DNA of 64,000 nt from an uncultured Alphaproteobacteria bacterium (GCA_902586695.1 CACIIL010000003.1:1639-65638); one strand, 5' to 3'; shown: positions 482 through 55,495, counted from the first letter of the stretch. A program made the numbers and translations. The notes: generated by a model from the letters alone, not told the origin.

Positions 482-1669
482 ATGAACAATATATCAAATC
501 TTTTTATAAAAATTGCTTCGTCTATAATTTTTGTTTTACTTATTGTTTCTACTCATTATTTGTTAATACCTAAAAATATATTTTTTTTATTTTTAAAATT
601 AATTTTTATAATACCAACTATTATGTTTATTGTTAATTTAGTAAACTTAATTCCAAAAAATTTATTTTATCAAATTTCTAAAATTTTAGCTGCCATAGCT
701 ATGGTTGCTTTAATTGTTGTTAGTTATCTCTCATCTAAAAGAAAACCTGATAATGTTTCAGAACTATATACAGATTTTAGTTGGTTGATAAATTGGCCAA
801 AGTGGCTTGATACACCTTTTATGCATTGGATTAATAAAGGTTGGAGAAGTTTTATAGCAGACTATGGAGTAATATTTGATGCTATTGGTTACGGACTTCT
901 AAGAGGATATACTGAATTAAAGAGTGTTATTGTTCAGGCTCCATGGCCTGTGGTTATAATAGGAGTTATAGCTATTACTTATTTTACTAGTGGCAGAAAA
1001 CTTGGTACTACAGTTTTTGTTGGTTTTTGTACTTTCTTTATTGGATTTTTAAATCCTCGTTTTTGGGATAAGGCTATTGAAACCACTACTATGGTTGTTA
1101 TTGGAATAGCTATTTGTATTGTAATTGGAATTCCAATAGGAATAGCAATGGCAAGAAGTGAAAAAGTTAGAAATGCAATTTTGCCAATTCTTGATACAAT
1201 GCAGGTAATTCCAGCATTTTGTTATTTAATACCTGGAATTATTTTATTTGGTTTAGGAGCTATTCCTGCAATTATATCTATATTTATTTACGCTTGCCCA
1301 CCATTAATTAGATTAACTGATCTAGGAATTAGATTAGTTGATAAGGAAGTAATAGAAGCTGCTAGGTCATTTGGAGCAAGTAAAAAACAAATGTTATTAG
1401 GTGTTCAATTACCTTTGGCTTTACCAAATATTATGCAAGGAATTAATCAATGCACAATGATGGCTTTAGCAATGGTAGTTATAGCTTCAATGATAGGAAC
1501 TCGTGGTTTAGGTGATGAAGTCTTATTAGGATTGCAACAATTAAATGTTGGAGCAGCACTTGAAGCTGGTTTAGCTATTGTTTTATTAGCAATTGTGTTG
1601 GATAGAATGACTCAAGCTTATGGTGAAAAAATACAAGAACGTACTCAACCAACTAAAAAGAAAAAATAA
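482..1669 (+). CDS. proW: Glycine betaine/proline ABC transporter permease
   Basis: 395 aa multi-TM protein. The C-terminal half carries an ABC permease EAA-type loop (IEAARSFGASKKQMLLGVQLPLALPNIMQG). It has the long hydrophobic N-terminal extension seen in ProW/OpuAB and sits between proX and proV. Confidence 0.85.
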   Translation: MNNISNLFIKIASSIIFVLLIVSTHYLLIPKNIFFLFLKLIFIIPTIMFIVNLVNLIPKNLFYQISKILAAIAMVALIVVSYLSSKRKPDNVSELYTDFSWLINWPKWLDTPFMHWINKGWRSFIADYGVIFDAIGYGLLRGYTELKSVIVQAPWPVVIIGVIAITYFTSGRKLGTTVFVGFCTFFIGFLNPRFWDKAIETTTMVVIGIAICIVIGIPIGIAMARSEKVRNAILPILDTMQVIPAFCYLIPGIILFGLGAIPAIISIFIYACPPLIRLTDLGIRLVDKEVIEAARSFGASKKQMLLGVQLPLALPNIMQGINQCTMMALAMVVIASMIGTRGLGDEVLLGLQQLNVGAALEAGLAIVLLAIVLDRMTQAYGEKIQERTQPTKKKK

Positions 1670-5140: not shown

Positions 5141-5175
5141 GATTTAAGTATATATATATTTGTTTGTTTAAAGAT

Positions 5176-5346
5176 TTAATTTTTTCTTAATGTCCAACCA
5201 TATCTCTCTGAATAATAAGCATTAGAATTATCAATTAAATCAAGATCAATTTTTGAATCCAAAGATTTTTCTATTACTTTATTTTCAACAGTAATATTAT
5301 TAGGTTTACTAAGTTTATTTTCTTCGATTTTGTTTCTTCTTTTCAT
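5176..5346 (-). CDS. Candidate small ORF (56 aa), hypothetical, divergent from the RamB-like regulator
   Basis: Hand-translated from the minus strand as MKRRNKIEENKLSKPNNITVENKVIEKSLDSKIDLDLIDNSNAYYSERYGWTLRKN*. It is below the ORF-track cutoff. A 56-codon stop-free run is unusual in DNA this A/T-rich, and it fills most of an otherwise anomalous 318-bp spacer. Its ATG sits in the same TGTAAATTATG context as the regulator's ATG. Confidence 0.35.
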   Translation of the reverse strand: MKRRNKIEENKLSKPNNITVENKVIEKSLDSKIDLDLIDNSNAYYSERYGWTLRKN

Positions 5347-5461
5347 AATTTACATATTTTACAAATATCAAAAAAAATCAATAAAATACTAGAAAATTAG
5401 GGTAAATCTTGTAAATAAAGTATTTATATATTATGTAATTTTGTAAATTTTGTAAATTATG
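5344..5461. promoter_or_regulatory. Divergent control region bounded by an imperfect 26-bp inverted repeat that embeds both start codons; contains tandem TTTGTAAAT repeats
   Basis: The right arm, 5436..5461, reads taattttgtaaattttgtaaattATG. The reverse complement of the left arm, 5344..5369, reads gatatttgtaaaatatgtaaattATG; 21 of 26 positions are identical. TTGTAAAT occurs at 5409, 5441 and 5450. Confidence 0.5.
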
Positions 5462-6898
5462 GAAATAAACGAAATATCAAATATCGGTTCAAAAATAAGA
5501 AAAGAGAGAAGGTCTAGAGGTTTTTCTCAGTCAGAATTATCAAAAAAATTAGATATTTCAGCAAGTTATTTGAATTTATTAGAAAGTGGTAGAAGAACTA
5601 TTACTGTCCCACTTTTGATAAAAATAGGCAACGAGTTAGGTCTTTCTTTAAAAGACTTAACTTTAGAGAGTAATAAAAGAATTTTATCAGATGTAATGGA
5701 TGTATTGAGTAATGAAATGTTTGATGATCTTGATATTACAAATCAAGAAACAACTGAATTTATAAGTTCAAATCCTACCATAGCAAAGGCTTTACTTGCA
5801 TTAAATGATGCACATAAATCATTTAAGGATGATATGCAAAATAGACTTGAGTCTATGGATATAAATGCAACAGTAGTAGAGCGCCCAAGTCGTTTACCAG
5901 TAGAAATTGTATCTGATTTTCTTCAAGATAATAAAAATTACTTTGAAGATATTGAATTGGCTTCTGAAATATTAAGGAAAAAAGTTGGATTAGATGATGG
6001 TCATAATATTGGTTCTGGTCTTAAATTAACAAACTATTTAAAATTAAAACACGACGTTATAGTCGAAATTGTTCCTGCTAGTGAAGAATTAAAATCTGTT
6101 CGTAATTTTGACAAAAAAAATAAAAAATTGCAATTATCTGAAATGTTAACTTATACATCTAGAAACTTTCATTTAGCTTACCAAGCTGCTTATTTAGAAG
6201 CTGAAGATGTAATAGATAAAATTATTAATGAAAATAATATTGAATCCACAGAAGTTCTACCTCTTTTGAAAATTTCACTCATAAATTACTTTGCATCAGC
6301 AATGTTAATGCCCTACGATGATTTTTTACAAATTGCAAAAAAAAATAAATATGATATTGAAATACTAATGCATCATTATGCATGCAGCTTTGAACAAGTT
6401 ACTCATAGGCTAACTAATTTACAAAAAACAGGGAACGAAGGTGTTCCTTTTCATTTCTTAAAAACTGATATAGCTGGAAATGTCTCAAAAAGATTTTCTT
6501 TATCAGGTATACACATACCTAGACATGGCGGTTCTTGTCCAAGATGGAATGTATATATAGCTTTTTTAAACCCAGGAAGAATTCATCCACAAATATCTAG
6601 AATGCCAGATGGTAAAGTATATTTTTGTATTGCTAGAGCTTTTGAAAAAGGTATCGAAAAACATGGAATGCCAAAAAGTTTCGTATCTATTGGCTTAGGA
6701 TGCGATATAAAATATGCTAGAGATTTGATATATTCTGAAGGTATGGATATTCAAAATAAAAAATTACAAACTCCAATTGGTGTTTCATGCAGAATTTGTC
6801 CTCGAATTGACTGTCAGCAGAGAGCATTTCCTCCAATTGATAAGGAGTTAAAATTAAATATTAATTATAGAGGTACTTCACCATACGTAACACTCTAA
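5459..6898 (+). CDS. XRE-family transcriptional regulator with ImmA/IrrE-like and DUF2083-like domains (RamB/PrpR/ScfR architecture)
   Basis: N-terminal HTH (RSRGFSQSELSKKLDISASYLNLLESGRR). The 479-aa length and Cys-rich C-terminus (GGSCPRWN ... CRICPRIDCQQRAFPP) match the RamB/PrpR type of acyl-CoA-responsive regulator. Confidence 0.75.
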   Translation: MEINEISNIGSKIRKERRSRGFSQSELSKKLDISASYLNLLESGRRTITVPLLIKIGNELGLSLKDLTLESNKRILSDVMDVLSNEMFDDLDITNQETTEFISSNPTIAKALLALNDAHKSFKDDMQNRLESMDINATVVERPSRLPVEIVSDFLQDNKNYFEDIELASEILRKKVGLDDGHNIGSGLKLTNYLKLKHDVIVEIVPASEELKSVRNFDKKNKKLQLSEMLTYTSRNFHLAYQAAYLEAEDVIDKIINENNIESTEVLPLLKISLINYFASAMLMPYDDFLQIAKKNKYDIEILMHHYACSFEQVTHRLTNLQKTGNEGVPFHFLKTDIAGNVSKRFSLSGIHIPRHGGSCPRWNVYIAFLNPGRIHPQISRMPDGKVYFCIARAFEKGIEKHGMPKSFVSIGLGCDIKYARDLIYSEGMDIQNKKLQTPIGVSCRICPRIDCQQRAFPPIDKELKLNINYRGTSPYVTL

Positions 6899-7902
6899 AT
6901 CTTTACTAGCATTTTACCTATATTTTTTCCATTTAACAAATCAACAAATGCTTTTGGACAATTATTTAATCCCTCATATACAGTTTCTCTAATTTTAATT
7001 TTTTCACTTATTAACCATTCGGTCATATTTTTAGTAAACTCTCCTTTTTCATTTTCATGATCAAATATTAAGAAACCTTTAATTGTTAGTCTTTTTACTA
7101 AAACATGAGCCATATTTTTTAATCCTGATCCAGTAGTTGAAGCATTCATTTGTGATATACGACCACATATAATAATTTTGCCAAAATTTTTCATTCTGTA
7201 TATTGCGGCTTCTAGAAAATCTCCACCTACATTATCAAAATAAATATCAAAACCATCTGGAGCTATTTCTTTTAATTTTAAGACTAAATTATTCGTTTTT
7301 TTATAATTAAAAGCATGATCAACTTTCAATTCATTTTTTAACCATTCAACTTTTTCATCGGAACCTGTGCTAGCAATTACTTTACAATCATTTATTTTTG
7401 CTATTTGGCAAACAAGAGAACCAACGCTTCCTCCAGCAGATGATACTAAAACAGTTTGGCCTTTTTTAATACTAGCCATTTTGTATAAACCAATATAAGC
7501 AGTATGCCCTGTCATACCTAAGGGACCCAAAAATGATTGTAAAGGCAGGTTTTTTGAATTTATTTTTTCTAAATTAATTTCTTTCTCTACAAACTTATCT
7601 CTCCAGCCACAATTACTTAAAACAAAATCACCCGTTTTAAAATTTTTAGAATTGCTTTTTATAACCTGCCCTATAGCAGAACCTTCCATTGGTTCCCCTA
7701 ATTTAAAAGGTGGTTTGTAATTTTTCTTTTCTGTCATTCTCGCTCGCATATATGGATCTACTGACAACCATAAATTATTAACTAAAATTTCATTTTTTTC
7801 ACTAATAGATATTTTTACCTCTTTAATTTCAAAATCTTCTTCTTTTGGAATTCCGATTGGTATATAATTTTTTAGGGTGACAAACTTTGAATTAATTGAC
7901 AT
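6895..7902 (-). CDS. NADP-dependent medium-chain oxidoreductase (alkenal/enone reductase, CurA/YncB/PTGR1-like)
   Basis: 335 aa with an LSVDPYMR N-terminal motif and the nucleotide-binding segment VLVSSAGGSVGSLVCQIAK. It is the last gene of the BKACE-lcdH operon. Confidence 0.75.
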   Translation of the reverse strand: MSINSKFVTLKNYIPIGIPKEEDFEIKEVKISISEKNEILVNNLWLSVDPYMRARMTEKKNYKPPFKLGEPMEGSAIGQVIKSNSKNFKTGDFVLSNCGWRDKFVEKEINLEKINSKNLPLQSFLGPLGMTGHTAYIGLYKMASIKKGQTVLVSSAGGSVGSLVCQIAKINDCKVIASTGSDEKVEWLKNELKVDHAFNYKKTNNLVLKLKEIAPDGFDIYFDNVGGDFLEAAIYRMKNFGKIIICGRISQMNASTTGSGLKNMAHVLVKRLTIKGFLIFDHENEKGEFTKNMTEWLISEKIKIRETVYEGLNNCPKAFVDLLNGKNIGKMLVKI

Positions 7903-7904
7903 TC

Positions 7905-8840
7905 TTATATCTTATATTTTTTTAATAATTTTTGTAAATCTATTAAAAAATTATCTCTTATATTAGATAGATTTTTAATAGATTTATTTTTTGATTGTAT
8001 TTTTGTTCCTTTAATAATTTTGTTTTTTAAACTTTTAGTTAAATTTGGGGCTTTTAATTTTGTCCATGGTAGTTTTAAAGCTGGACCGAACTGCTCTAAC
8101 ATATGTTTCATCCCCATTTCACCTCCAGCAAGATGGAAAGTTAAAAAAGTGCCCATTATTGACCATCTTAATCCAGGCCCATAAATTATAGCATCGTCTA
8201 AATCTTTAGTAGAAGCATATCCTTCATTTATAATATGCAAAGACTCTCTCCACATGGATTCCTGTAATCTATCTGATAGATAGCCTGGTAATTCTTTTTT
8301 TAGAATTATGGTTTTCATTCCAATTTCAACATAAAATTTTTGAGCTTTAAAAATATTTTTTTTATCTGTCTCTTTTCCTCTAACTAATTCAACTAAAGGT
8401 AAAAGATAAACAGGATTAAAAGGATGAGCAATTATTACTCTTTTTGGGTTAATGCACTTTGATTGAATTTTTGTTGGTAATAAACCAGAAGAACTTGATG
8501 CAATAATTGAGTCTTTTTTTGAATGCAAACTTATCTCTCTTATTATTTTTTTTTTTAATTTCTCATTTTCTGGTGCATTCTCTTGAATTAGTTCAGCTTC
8601 AGCAACTGCTTCTTTAATTGATGTACAGAATTTTAACTGTTTTTTTATATTTATTTTATTTTTATAAAATTTTTTTAAAATTGGTTCTACTCTTTTTATT
8701 TCTTCTAATAAAAATTTTTTTTGCTTAATATTTGGATCATAAATATTTATTATTTTTTTATTATATAGAAATCTTATTACCCAACCTGTACCAATAACTC
8801 CTGTTCCTATAACTGCAACTTTATTAATTGAATTAGGCAC
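7905..8840 (-). CDS. lcdH: L-carnitine dehydrogenase (3-hydroxyacyl-CoA dehydrogenase fold)
   Basis: Near-colinear with Pseudomonas LcdH as I recall it: VIGTGVIGTGW, HPFNPVYLLPLVE, PGLRWSIMGTFLTFHLAGGEMGMKHMLEQFGPALKLPWT. It is adjacent to a BKACE gene. Confidence 0.85.
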   Translation of the reverse strand: MPNSINKVAVIGTGVIGTGWVIRFLYNKKIINIYDPNIKQKKFLLEEIKRVEPILKKFYKNKINIKKQLKFCTSIKEAVAEAELIQENAPENEKLKKKIIREISLHSKKDSIIASSSSGLLPTKIQSKCINPKRVIIAHPFNPVYLLPLVELVRGKETDKKNIFKAQKFYVEIGMKTIILKKELPGYLSDRLQESMWRESLHIINEGYASTKDLDDAIIYGPGLRWSIMGTFLTFHLAGGEMGMKHMLEQFGPALKLPWTKLKAPNLTKSLKNKIIKGTKIQSKNKSIKNLSNIRDNFLIDLQKLLKKYKI

Positions 8841-8844
8841 TTAT

Positions 8845-9735
8845 TTAAAAATGTTTTTTTAAATTTAATTTATCTCTTGCTTCTTTAGGATTAAGTATTT
8901 TAGCACCTAAATCATTTATTATTCTTGAAGATTTCTCAACTAATTGAGCATTAGAAGCTAGGACACCTCTTTCTAAATATAAATTATCCTCTAGACCAAC
9001 TCTTACATTGCCTCCCAGAATAACTGATTGGGCAACCATTGGCATTTGATGTCTTCCTATTCCAAAACCAGCCCAATTAGCTTCTTTAGGGATCATATCT
9101 GCCATTACTTTCATTGAAGATGTGTTTGCCGGTGCCCCCCAAGGAATTCCCAAACAAATTTGATATAATGGAGGTGAGTCAATTAAACCTTCTTTATATA
9201 ATTGATTTGCAAACCATAAATGACCCATTTCAAAAGCTTCCATTTCTGGTTTAATTCCTAAATCTTGCATTTTTTTTGCAGCTGCTCTTAATTGAACAGG
9301 AGTATGAATAAATGTCATATTTGAGTCTCCAAAATTTAATGAACCACAATCTAATGTACAAATTTCTGGCAATAATTCCTCAATATGTTCTAATCTATCC
9401 AAAGCATGTATCATGTCTGTATTTGGTCCTAAAGGATTTAAAGGATTTTTACCTTCTCCAACTTCAAAATCTCCACCCATTCCTGTGGTAAAATTAATTA
9501 TTACATCTGTATCTGAAGATCGAATTCTGTCCGCAACCTCTTTATAGTATTCAAGTTTTCTACTTGGTTTTCCATCTGTTTCTCTTACATGTATGTGCGC
9601 GACAGCAGCTCCAGCCTTTGCAGCATCAATAGAAGCTTCAGCTATTTCTTTGGGAGTAATAGGTAGGTCTGGATGCTTGCTAACAGTATCACCAGAGCCA
9701 GTTACAGCACAACTTATAACAACTTCATTATTCAT
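8845..9735 (-). CDS. Beta-keto acid cleavage enzyme (BKACE/DUF849), probable 3-dehydrocarnitine cleavage enzyme
   Basis: 296 aa TIM-barrel-type BKACE pattern ([12 protein letters not shown] ... VAHIHVR ... [12 protein letters not shown]). The gene is immediately upstream of lcdH, the context described for dehydrocarnitine cleavage. Confidence 0.8.
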
Positions 9736-9778
9736 TTTTCTAAAAAAATGATGTATCTCACTTACAGGAAATTAACAA

Positions 9779-10246
9779 GTGTCTATATATTTAAAAACAG
9801 GAAAAGTTTTACCAGAGTGGACTGACTATAACGGTCATATGAATTTAGCTTTTTATATTCACCTTTTTGACTCTTCTTGGGAGGTATTGCTAGAGAAGTT
9901 TAACATAGGCGAAAATTCAGCAAAAAACGAAAAAAGAACTACATTTGCAGTAGAGTCTCATACTACATACGACATGGAGGTCAAAGTAGATGATGAAGTA
10001 GAAATGAACCTTCTTTTTCTAGATTTTGATAAAAAAAGATTAGTTTACAAATTAGAAATGATACATAAAAAAGAAAAATATTTAGCCTCAACTTCTGAGG
10101 TTTGTTCTTTATATGTCGATTTAAATTCAAGAAGGGTGACTGAATTTGAAGATAGCAAAAAAAAATTAATTCAAAACTTTATTGATACAAATAAAGATCA
10201 ATTCAATTCGGATAATTTGCATCTTATTAATAAATTAAAAAAATAA
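9779..10246 (+). CDS. Hotdog-fold (4HBT-like) acyl-CoA thioesterase, probable betainyl-CoA thioesterase
   Basis: 155 aa with a GTG start. The N-terminal WTDYNGHMNLAFY pattern is typical of hotdog thioesterases. It is divergent from the BKACE/lcdH operon. Confidence 0.65.
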   Translation: MSIYLKTGKVLPEWTDYNGHMNLAFYIHLFDSSWEVLLEKFNIGENSAKNEKRTTFAVESHTTYDMEVKVDDEVEMNLLFLDFDKKRLVYKLEMIHKKEKYLASTSEVCSLYVDLNSRRVTEFEDSKKKLIQNFIDTNKDQFNSDNLHLINKLKK

Positions 10247-32066: not shown

Positions 32067-33110
32067 CTAAATGCTTAATGGTTGTTGTTGGGTTATGCAA
32101 TGAATATTTCCACCACCAAGAGAAATATCTATTCCATTAATTGCTATAACTTTTCTGTTAGGAAAAACTGATTGAATAATATTTTGAGCATTTTTATCAT
32201 ATTTTTCATCATCAAAAATAGGCATTACTATTCCATTATTTACAATATAAAAATTTATATAAGAGCTTGGCTCATCATCATTAGGTATGAGCCTTTTATA
32301 AGACATTTCAATTTCTATAATTTCTAATGGATGTTCTTTTGCATCCCGAGATGTTTTTAATATTTCTAAATTTTCATTTATCTTTTCATAAAAAGGATCT
32401 TGTTTATCATGACAGGATAAGGCTAGAACTTTTGATTGATCAACAAAACACGCAATATTATCAATGTGCCCATCAGTCCCTTCATCAGTCCCATTTTTTA
32501 GCCAGATAATTTTTTTAATATTTAAATATTTTTTTATATTATCTTCTATTTCTTCTCTAGTTAATCCAGGGTTTCTGTTTTTATTCAATAAGCATTGTTC
32601 AGTTGTGATCAATGTACCCTCACCATCTACGTGAATTGATCCTCCTTCAAGTACCATAGATGATTTAAAATATGTTGCAGAACTTTTATCGATCATGAAT
32701 TTAGCAATTTTGTTATCAGAGTCATGTGGAGAAAATTTTCCCCATCCATTAAATTCCCAATCAACACCTCCTAATTTTTTTTGATCATTGATTAGAAATG
32801 TAGCCCCAGAATCTCTTGCCCAACAATCATCATTTTTAAACTCATAAATTTTTATAGAATTATCAAGAAGTTTTTTTGCAGTTTCTATATCTTTAGGGTG
32901 GACAATCATGTTTACTTTTTCAAAATTTGATATTGCTTTGGCAACTTCGGCCCATTTGTGTCTTCCTTTTTCAAAATCAAAATGAGACCAGCTTTCAATT
33001 TCTGTATATGAATTTTTATTTTCAAATTCATGAGGCCATTGCATCCAACAACATTCATGAGGATACCATTCTGGAGGCATAAAAAAATTAAATTTTTGAG
33101 GATATGACAT
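32067..33110 (-). CDS. aguA: Agmatine deiminase
   Basis: 347 aa with MPPEWYPHECCWMQWPH, WARDSGATF, GGSIHVDGEGT, TDGHIDN and the C-terminal GGGNIHCITQQQP catalytic Cys. Confidence 0.88.
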   Translation of the reverse strand: MSYPQKFNFFMPPEWYPHECCWMQWPHEFENKNSYTEIESWSHFDFEKGRHKWAEVAKAISNFEKVNMIVHPKDIETAKKLLDNSIKIYEFKNDDCWARDSGATFLINDQKKLGGVDWEFNGWGKFSPHDSDNKIAKFMIDKSSATYFKSSMVLEGGSIHVDGEGTLITTEQCLLNKNRNPGLTREEIEDNIKKYLNIKKIIWLKNGTDEGTDGHIDNIACFVDQSKVLALSCHDKQDPFYEKINENLEILKTSRDAKEHPLEIIEIEMSYKRLIPNDDEPSSYINFYIVNNGIVMPIFDDEKYDKNAQNIIQSVFPNRKVIAINGIDISLGGGNIHCITQQQPLSI

Positions 33111-33185
33111 TCAATAAGTTACGTTACAGTTTTTAGATTTTGTAAATGAGTAATCATCTTTGTACCTTTTTTATTTGGTAAAACA

Positions 33186-54685: not shown

Positions 54686-54869
54686 TTATATTTATAATTT
54701 CAAGATTAATTTCAGAAATATCGATTGTTTTCTTTCCAACATTTTCAAAATTAACTGTTATTAATTCATTGATTGAAGATTGGATTTGACCAATTCCCCA
54801 TTCATTTTTTTTATTAGGGTTTATAACAAATATTCCAGGTGTAAAAAGACTTGAATAGTTTTCAATCAT
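54660..54869 (-). CDS. Small conserved hypothetical protein (DUF3553-like)
   Basis: 69 aa. The WGIGQIQS...VNFENVGKK pattern matches my recollection of DUF3553. Its 3' end overlaps the annotated moaA start by 26 nt. Confidence 0.5.
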   Translation of the reverse strand: MIENYSSLFTPGIFVINPNKKNEWGIGQIQSSINELITVNFENVGKKTIDISEINLEIININETSRSIS

Positions 54870-54894
54870 AAATAATTCTTATATATTATTTAGA

Positions 54895-55302: not shown

Positions 55303-55408
55303 AATTTTCAACTCGAAACGATTTATCAAAAGATTTTTATAATTCAAGATTTATATATTCAAAAAAAATATTCATATATATCATATAGTTAATATTATTT
55401 TTATAAAA

Positions 55409-55423
55409 GAACAAAAATAGAAC
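55409..55423 (+). promoter_or_regulatory. Candidate alphaproteobacterial SOS (LexA) box GAAC-N7-GAAC upstream of recA
   Basis: GAACaaaaataGAAC read directly, 73 nt upstream of the first possible recA ATG. This is the direct-repeat LexA operator form established for Rhodobacter and Rhizobium. Confidence 0.5.
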
Positions 55424-55495
55424 TTTAAAAATGAGAACAAAACGTGTACAAAAAAAACATGATTTGCAAGAATCTTAATAAAAAACTAACAAATA

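What the first reader, a model, noticed from the sequence alone, without database searches (positions are those of the whole stretch)
5141..5461. Anomalously long spacer hides a 56-codon ORF and a mirrored 26-bp module that embeds both divergent start codons
Seen: the 318-bp gap between betA and the RamB-like regulator is by far the longest spacer in the window. On the minus strand it holds an uninterrupted 56-codon ORF (5176..5346). Its ATG and the regulator's ATG both sit in TGTAAATTATG. The 26 nt ending at each ATG are mutual reverse complements at 21 of 26 positions (5344..5369 versus 5436..5461). The right arm is a tandem TTTGTAAAT repeat, and another TTGTAAAT lies at 5409.

Known: regulators with the XRE + ImmA-like + DUF2083 architecture (RamB, PrpR, ScfR) bind A/T-rich boxes. 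From memory, the Corynebacterium RamB box is about AACTTTGCAAA, which AATTTTGTAAA matches at 9 of 11 positions.

Inference: the regulator autoregulates and co-regulates a divergent small protein through symmetric operators that overlap both translation starts.
Basis: partly seen in the sequence, partly recalled or inferred. Interest (0 to 1): 0.6.

Follow-up and report, generated by a model that had tools for sequence, protein, structure and literature searches.

The report
Regulator operators flanking a conserved small gene
The long spacer holds a real, conserved 56-residue protein gene of unknown function, transcribed away from an acyl-CoA-sensing regulator, and the two genes share repeated binding boxes typical of that regulator family; marine phages carry copies of the small gene together with its boxes.

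Summary
The window comes from an AT-rich (29% GC) marine alphaproteobacterium of the HIMB59 / AEGEAN-169 type.

- **The small gene is real.** The ORF at 5176..5346 (-) is present and in frame in 32 of 32 related genomes, and in more than 80 metagenome loci. Its C-terminal motif AYYSxRYGWTLR[KR] is under purifying selection (pN/pS 0.22). It matches no known family.
- **The "mirrored module" is two operators.** Each is TTTGTAAA-N-TtTGTAAA, two 8-bp boxes 1 bp apart. This is the design footprinted for M. tuberculosis PrpR (TTTGCAAA-N-TTTGCgAA). A weaker central pair and one extra box lie between them. The boxes are conserved while the rest of the spacer drifts.
- **The regulator is a clear PrpR/RamB (ScfR) homologue.** All three domains and all four Fe-S cysteines are present.
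- **Most likely mechanism.** The regulator autoregulates and co-regulates the small gene, probably by repression. The boxes appear to overlap a -10-like hexamer, although promoter positions are only inferred.
- **Unexpected.** Podovirus contigs related to pelagiphage HTVC023P carry a homologue of the small gene with the same box layout but no regulator.

The small protein's function is unknown. Binding was not tested.

The parts
5176..5346 (-). Gene for a 56-residue basic, hydrophilic protein (MKRRNK...AYYSERYGWTLRKN; pI 9.4) belonging to an uncharacterised family
   Evidence: ORF and translation. 711 homologues. A profile search of 1.8 billion representatives gave 51 hits, most of them 36-102 aa and ending in the C-terminal motif, with some chimeric or fragmentary calls. 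Frame kept in 32 of 32 genome loci. pN/pS is 0.22 in the C-terminal motif and 0.84 in the N-terminus. No Pfam, NCBIfam, PHROG or PDB match. AlphaFold2 predicts a disordered N-terminus, then helix, then a C-terminal beta-hairpin with block-mean pLDDT about 83-93.
5349..5365 (-). Operator O_S. Read on the - strand it is TTTGTAAA-A-TATGTAAA, two 8-bp boxes 1 bp apart, ending 2 nt before the small gene's ATG
   Evidence: One mismatch to the consensus and second-best weight-matrix hit in 64 kb. Conserved in the orthologous spacers. By inspection of the sequences, its junction forms a -10-like hexamer (TAnTGT in relatives, ATATGT here) about 18 nt downstream of a TTGAtt/TTGCAt -35-like hexamer.
5399..5415 (+). 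Degenerate central box pair O_C, AGGGTAAA-T-CTTGTAAA. The TGTAAA at 5410..5415 is invariant
   Evidence: TGTAAA is invariant in 33 spacers. GGTAAAt..tGTAAA is conserved in the 77-spacer consensus. On the - strand it reads as a TTTACA -35-like hexamer.
5432..5439 (+). Extra box TATGTAAT, directly next to O_R. In many relatives it is the second box of a further pair
5440..5456 (+). Operator O_R, TTTGTAAA-T-TTTGTAAA, ending 2 nt before the regulator's ATG
   Evidence: The only perfect match and the best weight-matrix hit in the window. Nearly invariant in 77 distinct spacers. Same 8-1-8 design as the footprinted MtPrpR site.
5459..6898 (+). ScfR-family (PrpR/RamB-like) regulator, 479 aa: XRE helix-turn-helix, degenerate M78/IrrE-like domain, and ScfRs C-terminal domain with [4Fe-4S] ligands
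   Evidence: Pfam HTH_3 4.7e-12, Peptidase_M78 4.8e-15, ScfRs 3.3e-60. Match to MtPrpR structures 6CZ6/6CYY at 2e-70. Cys360 and C444-X2-C447-X4-C452 are present and there is no HExxH. Ligand assignment taken from PMC6765138. Public annotation is 'short-chain fatty acyl-CoA regulator family protein'.
5141..5175 (.). 35-nt remnant between the stop codons of the GMC oxidoreductase gene and the small gene. In the closest relatives a 341-aa aldo/keto reductase gene sits here, on the small gene's strand
   Evidence: Synteny. Aldo/keto reductase Pfam match 1.1e-67. The reductase lies within about 100 nt downstream of the small gene in 12 loci only. No terminator-like site.

Best explanation
The spacer is a compact divergent control region shared by two real genes.

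One gene encodes an ScfR-family, acyl-CoA-sensing transcription factor homologous to PrpR and RamB. The other encodes a conserved small protein of about 56 residues and unknown function.

The regulator most likely binds tandem 8-bp boxes with consensus TTTGTAAA, arranged 8 bp, 1 bp, 8 bp. One pair lies next to each start codon, and the two pairs face in opposite directions. A weaker central pair and one extra box lie between them.

The outer pairs appear to overlap a -10-like hexamer and sit next to the start codon of the adjacent gene, although promoter positions are only inferred. The most likely effect is therefore repression of both genes: negative autoregulation plus co-repression of the small gene. 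An acyl-CoA ligand would relieve or modulate it.

What is shown here:
- both genes are real;
- the regulator belongs to the ScfR family;
- the boxes are conserved and match the family's operator design.

What is inferred:
- that the regulator binds these boxes;
- the sign of regulation;
- the identity of the ligand.

The small protein is the most constant neighbour of this regulator subfamily. It has also been taken up, boxes included, by marine podoviruses. My best guess is that it is a small effector of the regulon, possibly a modulator of the regulator itself.
For: **Small gene**
- It is conserved in frame, divergent from the regulator, in 32 of 32 genome loci. Of 99 distinct upstream regions, 84 have both box pairs and the regulator.
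- Selection acts at the protein level on the C-terminal motif.

**Regulator**
- All three ScfR domains are present.
- It matches MtPrpR at 2e-70, with the Fe-S cysteines aligned.

**Boxes**
- The MtPrpR footprint is two 8-bp palindromes, TTTGCAAA and TTTGCgAA, separated by one nucleotide, in its own divergent promoter region.
- Paired, nearly identical boxes are described as typical of ScfR sites.
- RamB negatively autoregulates in Corynebacterium and Mycobacterium.
- The boxes are the most conserved part of the spacer and the only strong matches in 64 kb.
- Distant ScfR homologues in 61-69% GC genomes that lack the small gene still carry TGT[AC]AA-type boxes upstream of their own start. In L036 four boxes are phased at 9 bp.

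**Position**
- By inspection of the sequences, the junction of the small-gene-proximal pair forms TAnTGT 17-18 nt downstream of TTGayy in most lineages, with 5 nt to the ATG in this window.
Against: - There are no binding, transcript or protein data.
- The box has T where characterised ScfR boxes have C (TTTGTAAA versus TTTGCAAA).
- Several characterised family members are activators: PrpR and Paracoccus RamB, and Rhodobacter PccR, which describes as an activator. The sign of regulation is therefore uncertain.
- The boxes also accompany the small gene where no regulator is adjacent: in phage, and next to a 317-aa enzyme gene that looks like a ureohydrolase.
- Promoter positions are only consensus matches, and the scan found no more promoter-like sites than in shuffles (5 versus 4.3).
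- No other strong site was found in the 64-kb window. In particular there is none ahead of the neighbouring carnitine-type operon, so the regulon is undefined.
Confidence: 0.72

Rival explanations
1. Same parts, opposite sign. The regulator activates transcription, as PrpR, PccR and Paracoccus RamB do. Each box pair would then act as an upstream activator site for the opposite, divergent promoter, roughly 75-110 bp from that gene's start.
For: Family members are documented activators, and Paracoccus RamB binds two boxes 82 bp upstream of its target. PrpR activates prpDC from the shared divergent region. O_R lies 94-110 nt upstream of the small gene's ATG, and O_S lies a similar distance upstream of the regulator's ATG.
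Against: By inspection of the sequences, the pair nearest each gene overlaps a -10-like hexamer and lies 0-6 nt from the regulator's ATG in the 77 spacers examined, which is a typical repressor position. RamB proteins repress and negatively autoregulate. The two modes could coexist.
Confidence: 0.25
2. The boxes are operators of the small protein itself. In this view the small gene and its boxes form a self-contained, self-regulated cassette, and its position next to the ScfR gene says nothing about who binds.
For: The boxes travel with the small gene into phage genomes, and next to an enzyme gene that looks like a ureohydrolase, where no ScfR gene is adjacent. The protein is basic (pI 9.35), with a predicted helix and beta-hairpin.
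Against: The box sequence and the 8-1-8 spacing match the experimentally defined ScfR operator. ScfR homologues without any small gene, in high-GC genomes, carry the same kind of boxes ahead of their own start (no small-ORF hit there). The protein has no recognisable DNA-binding fold.
Confidence: 0.08
3. The repeats act at the RNA level. Either they form a shared 5' leader element (UUUGUAAAnUUUGUAAA) that controls translation of both mRNAs, or the two arms pair as a long hairpin in one transcript.
For: Both motifs have the same orientation relative to their gene, so both mRNAs could carry them if transcription starts upstream. The region folds with a z-score of -4.2.
Against: The fold score is simply a consequence of the inverted repeat. 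The variable positions of the two arms do not covary: 197 identities observed against 203.7 expected, and 1876 of 2000 shuffles reach the observed value. The distance from the boxes to the small gene's ATG varies from 2 to about 38 nt, with a Shine-Dalgarno sequence inserted in between. There is no Rfam match. The boxes appear to contain the likely -10 element, so much of the motif would not be transcribed.
Confidence: 0.04
4. Nothing functional is here: a chance ORF and low-complexity A/T repeats in an AT-rich spacer.
For: The spacer is only 18% GC. An ORF of 56 codons or more arises in 2.6% of shuffles.
Against: The ORF is conserved across lineages with protein-level constraint. The boxes persist in 36-39% GC phage contigs and in 61-69% GC genomes. 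The 21-of-26 match has P = 2e-6.
Confidence: 0.01

Closest known systems
Mycobacterium tuberculosis PrpR (Rv1129c) and its prpR-prpDC divergent promoter
   Same: Same protein family and domain order, matching at 2e-70, with the C-X2-C-X4-C motif and the fourth cysteine conserved. The operator consists of two 8-bp boxes separated by 1 bp, inside the regulator's own divergent intergenic region.
   Different: The box core is TTTGTAAA rather than the palindrome TTTGCAAA. There are two oppositely oriented outer pairs plus extra boxes, rather than one pair. The divergent partner is a 56-aa protein of unknown function, not methylcitrate-cycle enzymes. PrpR is an activator, whereas the box positions here suggest repression.
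RamB of Corynebacterium glutamicum and M. tuberculosis
   Same: ScfR-family regulator with a TTTGCAAA-type box, A(A/G)AACTTTGCAAA. It represses target genes and negatively autoregulates.
   Different: RamB targets are acetate and glyoxylate-cycle genes, often through single 13-bp sites. The pairing of the regulator with a small gene and the mirror-image operator layout are not described for RamB.
Paracoccus denitrificans RamB (class 2) and Rhodobacter PccR
   Same: Alphaproteobacterial ScfR regulators that bind two nearly identical boxes upstream of a neighbouring target and respond to CoA esters.
   Different: The Paracoccus boxes are 18 bp apart and lie 82 bp upstream of malate synthase, and the protein is an activator. 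The PccR paper (PMC4560284) could not be read here, so its motif was not compared.
Host transcription-factor sites carried by marine phages (from my own knowledge: PhoB and NtcA sites in cyanophages, LexA boxes in temperate phages)
   Same: The phage contigs carry boxes of a presumed host regulator ahead of phage genes.
   Different: Here the phage carries a homologue of the host's regulated small gene together with the whole two-sided box layout. The regulator involved would be an acyl-CoA sensor. No experimental link exists.

Membership tests
ScfR family (short-chain fatty acyl-CoA regulators: PrpR, RamB, PccR, MccR), for the regulator at 5459..6898 | N-terminal XRE-type helix-turn-helix domain | tested here: met
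   Pfam HTH_3, 4.7e-12, residues 13-67.
ScfR family (short-chain fatty acyl-CoA regulators: PrpR, RamB, PccR, MccR), for the regulator at 5459..6898 | Central IrrE/M78-like domain without the catalytic HExxH motif | tested here: met
   Peptidase_M78, 4.8e-15, residues 198-319. No HExxH anywhere in the protein.
ScfR family (short-chain fatty acyl-CoA regulators: PrpR, RamB, PccR, MccR), for the regulator at 5459..6898 | C-terminal ScfRs (DUF2083) domain | tested here: met
   PF09856, 3.3e-60, covering 156 of 157 model positions. Match to MtPrpR structures at 2e-70 over residues 64-476.
ScfR family (short-chain fatty acyl-CoA regulators: PrpR, RamB, PccR, MccR), for the regulator at 5459..6898 | [4Fe-4S] ligands: C-X2-C-X4-C plus one cysteine in the GAF-like domain (MtPrpR Cys447, 450, 455 and 363) | tested here: met
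   C444-X2-C447-X4-C452 and Cys360 (GGSCPRW) align to the MtPrpR residues.
ScfR family (short-chain fatty acyl-CoA regulators: PrpR, RamB, PccR, MccR), for the regulator at 5459..6898 | Operator made of paired TTTGCAAA-type 8-bp boxes in or near its own promoter region | tested here: met
   TTTGTAAA-N-TTTGTAAA at 5440..5456 and TTTGTAAA-N-TATGTAAA at 5349..5365 (-). Each box matches at 7 of 8 or 6 of 8 positions, with the same 8-1-8 spacing as the MtPrpR footprint. This is a sequence match only.
ScfR family (short-chain fatty acyl-CoA regulators: PrpR, RamB, PccR, MccR), for the regulator at 5459..6898 | Binds CoA or acyl-CoA, and binds these boxes in vitro or in vivo | not testable with these tools
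   Needs purified protein (gel shift, footprinting, ligand binding).
ScfR family (short-chain fatty acyl-CoA regulators: PrpR, RamB, PccR, MccR), for the regulator at 5459..6898 | Divergent or adjacent target is an acyl-CoA-metabolising enzyme operon (prpDC, pccB, aceA/aceB) | tested here: not met
   The divergent gene is the 56-aa ORF. A carnitine-type operon (3-hydroxyacyl-CoA dehydrogenase family, BKACE, thioesterase) is convergent with the regulator, and its 43-nt promoter region has no box. This is a typical feature of the family rather than a defining one.
Any described protein family, for the small ORF at 5176..5346 | Significant match to a Pfam, NCBIfam, PHROG or PDB sequence profile, or to a solved or predicted fold | tested here: not met
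   No family passes: best Pfam E-value 0.048, NCBIfam 0.047, PDB profile 0.11, no PHROG hit. Foldseek against PDB and BFVD gives E of 1 or more.
Known structured RNA (riboswitch, leader, small RNA) in the spacer | Match to an Rfam covariance model, or covariation supporting a helix | tested here: not met
   Nothing at gathering score, and the best relaxed hits have E above 2. No covariation between the two arms.

The most novel reading that the evidence does not exclude
The small protein is a dedicated partner of this ScfR regulator. It could be an anti-repressor-like or co-regulatory peptide whose C-terminal beta-hairpin docks on the regulator, closing a feedback loop. Relatives of pelagiphage HTVC023P would then have captured the gene together with the host operators. 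That would let them sense the host's acyl-CoA state, or override its acyl-CoA-responsive regulon, during infection.
Probability: 0.2. Interest if true: 0.75.

Novelty: new variant of a known kind. Interest (0 to 1): 0.55.

Why it matters
HIMB59 / AEGEAN-169 and SAR11-type bacteria have very few transcription factors and almost no intergenic DNA. A fully conserved regulator, operator and target module is therefore one of the few regulatory circuits in these abundant ocean bacteria that can be read directly from sequence and tested.

It yields four things:
- a concrete operator consensus for a marine ScfR subfamily;
- a new, widespread small-protein family, with 711 homologues (the 120 listed are all clusters at 90% identity), tied to acyl-CoA sensing;
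- an example of phages carrying both a host regulon member and what look like the host regulator's binding sites, which would link phage gene expression to host carbon metabolism;
- a genomic context (carnitine and choline-type catabolic genes) that suggests which acyl-CoA ligands to test.

Tried and rejected
- **Rfam.** Scans of the window and of the spacer found only a tRNA elsewhere.
- **Family searches for the small protein.** Pfam, NCBIfam, PHROGs and a PDB profile search gave nothing.
- **Structure.** Two AlphaFold2 models (pTM 0.29 and 0.38) show a helix plus a C-terminal hairpin. Foldseek against PDB and BFVD gave no hit with E below 1. The top BFVD hits are small Caulobacter phage proteins, too weak to use.
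- **Most distant genome copy.** A homologue search with the MarineAlpha5 copy returned only itself.
- **Isolated phages.** tblastn of both phage-type small proteins against INPHARED found no match.
- **RNA hairpin.** Rejected for lack of covariation.
- **Missing Shine-Dalgarno as evidence for leaderless mRNA.** Rejected, because only 7 of 63 genes in the window have a Shine-Dalgarno-like sequence.
- **Operon with the aldo/keto reductase.** This holds only for a subset of close relatives, 12 loci.
- **Other box hits in the window.** 41376 and 44715 lie inside coding regions. 33130 is intergenic but weak. All were treated as chance.
- **Literature.** The PccR paper (PMC4560284) is not held. No paper links ScfR regulators to SAR11-type bacteria.
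- **Promoters.** The promoter scan found no more sites than in shuffles, so promoter assignments remain inference.

Full report
**1. What is in the sequence**

The window is 29% GC and very densely coded: 97% coding, with a median intergenic gap of 4 nt. Record titles of the nearest relatives place it with the HIMB59 / AEGEAN-169 group of marine Alphaproteobacteria.

The stretch 5141..5458 is the longest apparent gap in the window, 318 nt against 209 nt for the next.
- a 56-codon ATG ORF at 5176..5346 on the minus strand;
- TGTAAATTATG at both start codons and nowhere else in 64 kb;
- 21 of 26 reverse-complement identity between 5344..5369 and 5436..5461, with P = 2e-6 at the local base composition;
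- a further TTGTAAAT at 5409.

An ORF this long arises in 2.6% of shuffles of the spacer, so the ORF alone is only suggestive.

**2. The small ORF is a real, conserved gene**

- It has 711 homologues in the 5.8-billion-protein set.
- In all 32 related genome loci with enough upstream sequence, a homologue lies divergent from the regulator. The regulators there are 69-91% identical, the gap between the start codons is 109-124 nt, and the small protein is 51-59 aa long.
- The N-terminal third is variable and Lys/Asn-rich (pN/pS 0.84).
- The C-terminal AYYS[EN]RYGW[TS]LR[KR] is essentially invariant (pN/pS 0.22), even though synonymous differences are near saturation at pS 0.54. The constraint therefore acts on the protein, not on the DNA.
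- A profile search of 1.8 billion cluster representatives found 51 hits. Most are 36-102 aa and end in the same motif, and a few are chimeric or fragmentary calls. More distant members also share a central K-I-L-s-d-i-T-R-k-D-I-E-K-S segment.
- Nothing matches in Pfam, NCBIfam, PHROGs or the PDB.
- AlphaFold2 predicts a disordered N-terminus, a helix, and a fairly confident C-terminal beta-hairpin with block-mean pLDDT about 83-93. Overall pTM is low (0.29 and 0.38) and there are no fold matches.
- Public gene calls already include this protein, but without a name.

**3. The regulator**

The gene at 5459..6898 encodes an XRE helix-turn-helix, a degenerate M78/IrrE-like domain with no HExxH, and the ScfRs C-terminal domain. 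It matches the crystal-structure sequences of M. tuberculosis PrpR at 2e-70. The four [4Fe-4S] ligands are conserved: Cys360 and C444-X2-C447-X4-C452, corresponding to MtPrpR Cys363, 447, 450 and 455. This is firm membership of the ScfR family.

**4. The "mirrored module" is a set of ScfR-type operators**

| Site | Coordinates | Strand | Sequence |
|---|---|---|---|
| O_R | 5440..5456 | + | TTTGTAAA-T-TTTGTAAA |
| O_S | 5349..5365 | - | TTTGTAAA-A-TATGTAAA |
| O_C (weaker central pair) | 5399..5415 | + | AGGGTAAA-T-CTTGTAAA |
| Extra box | 5432..5439 | + | TATGTAAT |

The footprinted MtPrpR site is two 8-bp palindromes, TTTGCAAA and TTTGCgAA, separated by one nucleotide. It lies between prpR and the divergent prpD (PMC3420887, PMC6765138). 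Paired, nearly identical boxes are described as usual for ScfR sites (PMC10370305). The Corynebacterium RamB box is A(A/G)AACTTTGCAAA (PMC4448153).

Evidence that the boxes are functional:
- In an alignment of 33 orthologous spacers, the boxes and the central TGTAAA are the conserved columns, while the rest diverges.
- Across 77 distinct spacers the regulator-side consensus is ggTAAAt..tGTAAA(15 nt)TgTAAAaaaTGTAAtTTTGTAAAt.TTGTAAA. That is up to three pairs at 9-bp phasing, ending 0-6 nt before the regulator's ATG.
- The two strongest weight-matrix hits in the whole window are O_R and O_S.
- Variable positions of the two arms do not covary. They are therefore independent protein-binding sites, not the two halves of a hairpin.
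- No Rfam family matches.

**5. Who binds the boxes**

Two observations pull in opposite directions.

- *The boxes follow the small gene.* Of 99 distinct upstream regions of family members, 84 have both box pairs and the divergent regulator. A further 14 keep the boxes without an adjacent regulator, and one has neither.
- *The boxes also follow the regulator.* Distant ScfR homologues (33-41% identity) in 61-69% GC genomes have no small gene. They still carry TGT[AC]AA-type boxes just upstream of their own start. An example is TTGTCAAC-G-ATGTAAAC-T-GGTCAACG-TTGTCAAT in L036.

Together with the literature match, the regulator is by far the best candidate binder. The small gene is then its most constant target.

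**6. Likely mode of action (inference)**

By inspection of the sequences, in most lineages the junction of the small-gene-proximal pair reads TAnTGT. This is a -10-like hexamer. It lies 17-18 nt downstream of a TTGAtt or TTGCAt hexamer.

In this window the arrangement is TTGATT (5381..5376), 18 nt, ATATGT (5357..5352), 5 nt, then the ATG. Deeper clades insert a leader with an AAGGAG Shine-Dalgarno sequence after the boxes, so the boxes are not a ribosome-binding site.

On the regulator side, many lineages show TTGTAA, 18 nt, TATTGT, then 4-5 nt to the ATG. This again places the -10 inside the operator.

Occupied boxes would therefore block RNA polymerase at both promoters. The result would be negative autoregulation, as documented for RamB, together with co-repression of the small gene.

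The opposite sign cannot be excluded. PrpR, PccR and Paracoccus RamB are activators, and each pair also lies about 75-110 bp upstream of the opposite gene. The consensus promoter scan was no better than shuffles. This genome rarely uses Shine-Dalgarno sequences (7 of 63 genes), so the missing Shine-Dalgarno here is uninformative.

**7. Genomic context**

- Downstream, convergent with the regulator, are a 335-aa oxidoreductase, a 3-hydroxyacyl-CoA dehydrogenase-family protein and a BKACE enzyme. A 4HBT thioesterase on the opposite strand follows. From my own knowledge this set resembles the carnitine-to-glycine-betaine route, which proceeds through CoA esters, so it is a plausible source of the ligand.
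- The 43-nt promoter region of that operon contains no box.
- In the closest relatives a 341-aa aldo/keto reductase gene follows the small gene on the same strand. It is absent from this window.

**8. Unexpected: phage copies**

One subgroup of the family lies on phage contigs. Its typical sequence is MEQDNSLKKSIEILAEMTR..AHYSERYGW.LKKK.

- L085 and L115 carry DNA polymerase (phrog_17, 1e-116), endonuclease VII, a 2OG-Fe(II) oxygenase and an endolysin.
- A scan of IMG/VR found seven viral contigs of 6.9-35.9 kb. In L125 the homologue sits between a virion-protein module and the replication module (DNA polymerase, exonuclease, helicase).
- Their polymerase is closest to phage 023Pt_psg01 (56%) and to Pelagibacter phages HTVC023P (53%) and HTVC027P (48%).
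- Both phage groups keep the two-sided layout, for example CAT-N8-TTTACACC-TTTACACG ... TTTGTAAAA-ATGTAAATA-GTGTCAATT-GT-ATG. The distal pair abuts a divergent 79-96-aa gene instead of the regulator.
- No isolated phage in INPHARED carries the gene.

The simplest reading is that these phages acquired a host regulon member together with its operators. Expression of that phage region would then depend on the host's ScfR regulator. This is inference.

**9. Verdict**

The regulator and operator part is a new member of a well-known kind. It has an unusually clean, mirror-symmetric, multi-box layout.

The novelty lies in two things: the conserved, uncharacterised small-protein partner, and its capture by phages along with the boxes.

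The function of the small protein remains unknown. I favour a small effector or modulator within the acyl-CoA-responsive circuit, and I give about 0.2 probability to the stronger claim that it acts directly on the regulator.

Noticed in passing
L085 (small gene 709..888), L115 (2669..2848), L123-L129 (e.g. L125 8010..8171): Homologues of the small protein sit inside podovirus-like phage contigs. These carry DNA polymerase A, endonuclease VII, exonuclease, helicase, an internal virion protein and an endolysin, and their closest isolates are phage 023Pt_psg01 and Pelagibacter phages HTVC023P and HTVC027P. The phage copies keep the same two-sided TGTAAA/TTTACA box layout but have no regulator gene nearby.
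   Followed up: partly
window 5141..5175, compared with L001 2646..3671: The closest relatives have a 341-aa aldo/keto reductase gene directly downstream of the small gene on the same strand. In this window it is missing, leaving only 35 nt between two convergent stop codons.
   Followed up: partly
L041 147..644 (a 722-bp metagenome contig): A 165-aa ORF joins the N-terminal helix-turn-helix part of a related regulator (about 125 residues) to the small protein's C-terminal motif (..EVHYSERYGWTLKK). A single inversion with break points inside both divergent genes could produce it. There is only one short contig, so a rearranged or chimeric sequence cannot be excluded.
   Followed up: partly
window 6895..10246: Convergent with the regulator: a 335-aa oxidoreductase, a 3-hydroxyacyl-CoA dehydrogenase-family protein and a BKACE enzyme, followed by a divergent 4HBT thioesterase. 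From my own knowledge this set resembles carnitine catabolism through CoA esters. There are no regulator boxes in its 43-nt promoter region (9736..9778).
   Followed up: partly
L073 (small gene at 1037) and L081 (1537..1740): In these metagenome contigs the small gene and both box pairs lie divergent from a 317-aa gene instead of the regulator. That gene looks like an arginase/agmatinase-type ureohydrolase to me; this was judged by eye and not checked with a family search. The gene-plus-operator unit therefore seems to move as a cassette.
   Followed up: no
L036 (about 20-55 nt upstream of the regulator start at 1736); L038-L040 (upstream of 4001): Distant ScfR homologues in 61-69% GC genomes have A/T-rich TGT[AC]AA-type boxes immediately ahead of their own start. 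In L036 there are four boxes at 9-bp phasing, and the divergent gene looks like malate synthase by eye.
   Followed up: partly
window 54686..54894 and 55348..55495: These are the next-longest apparent intergenic gaps in the window (209 and 148 nt), in a genome whose median gap is 4 nt. They were not examined, and there is no Rfam hit at gathering score.
   Followed up: no
whole window: Only 7 of 63 predicted genes have a Shine-Dalgarno-like sequence within 20 nt of the start codon. In contrast, several deeper-branching relatives of the small gene carry a clear AAGGAG.
   Followed up: partly
window 33130..33146: A weak box-pair match (TTTTTAGATTTTGTAAA, weight-matrix score 13.5 against 23.9 for O_R) lies in the 75-nt gap upstream of the gene at 32067..33110 (-). 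It is probably chance, but it is the only intergenic candidate outside the spacer.
   Followed up: no
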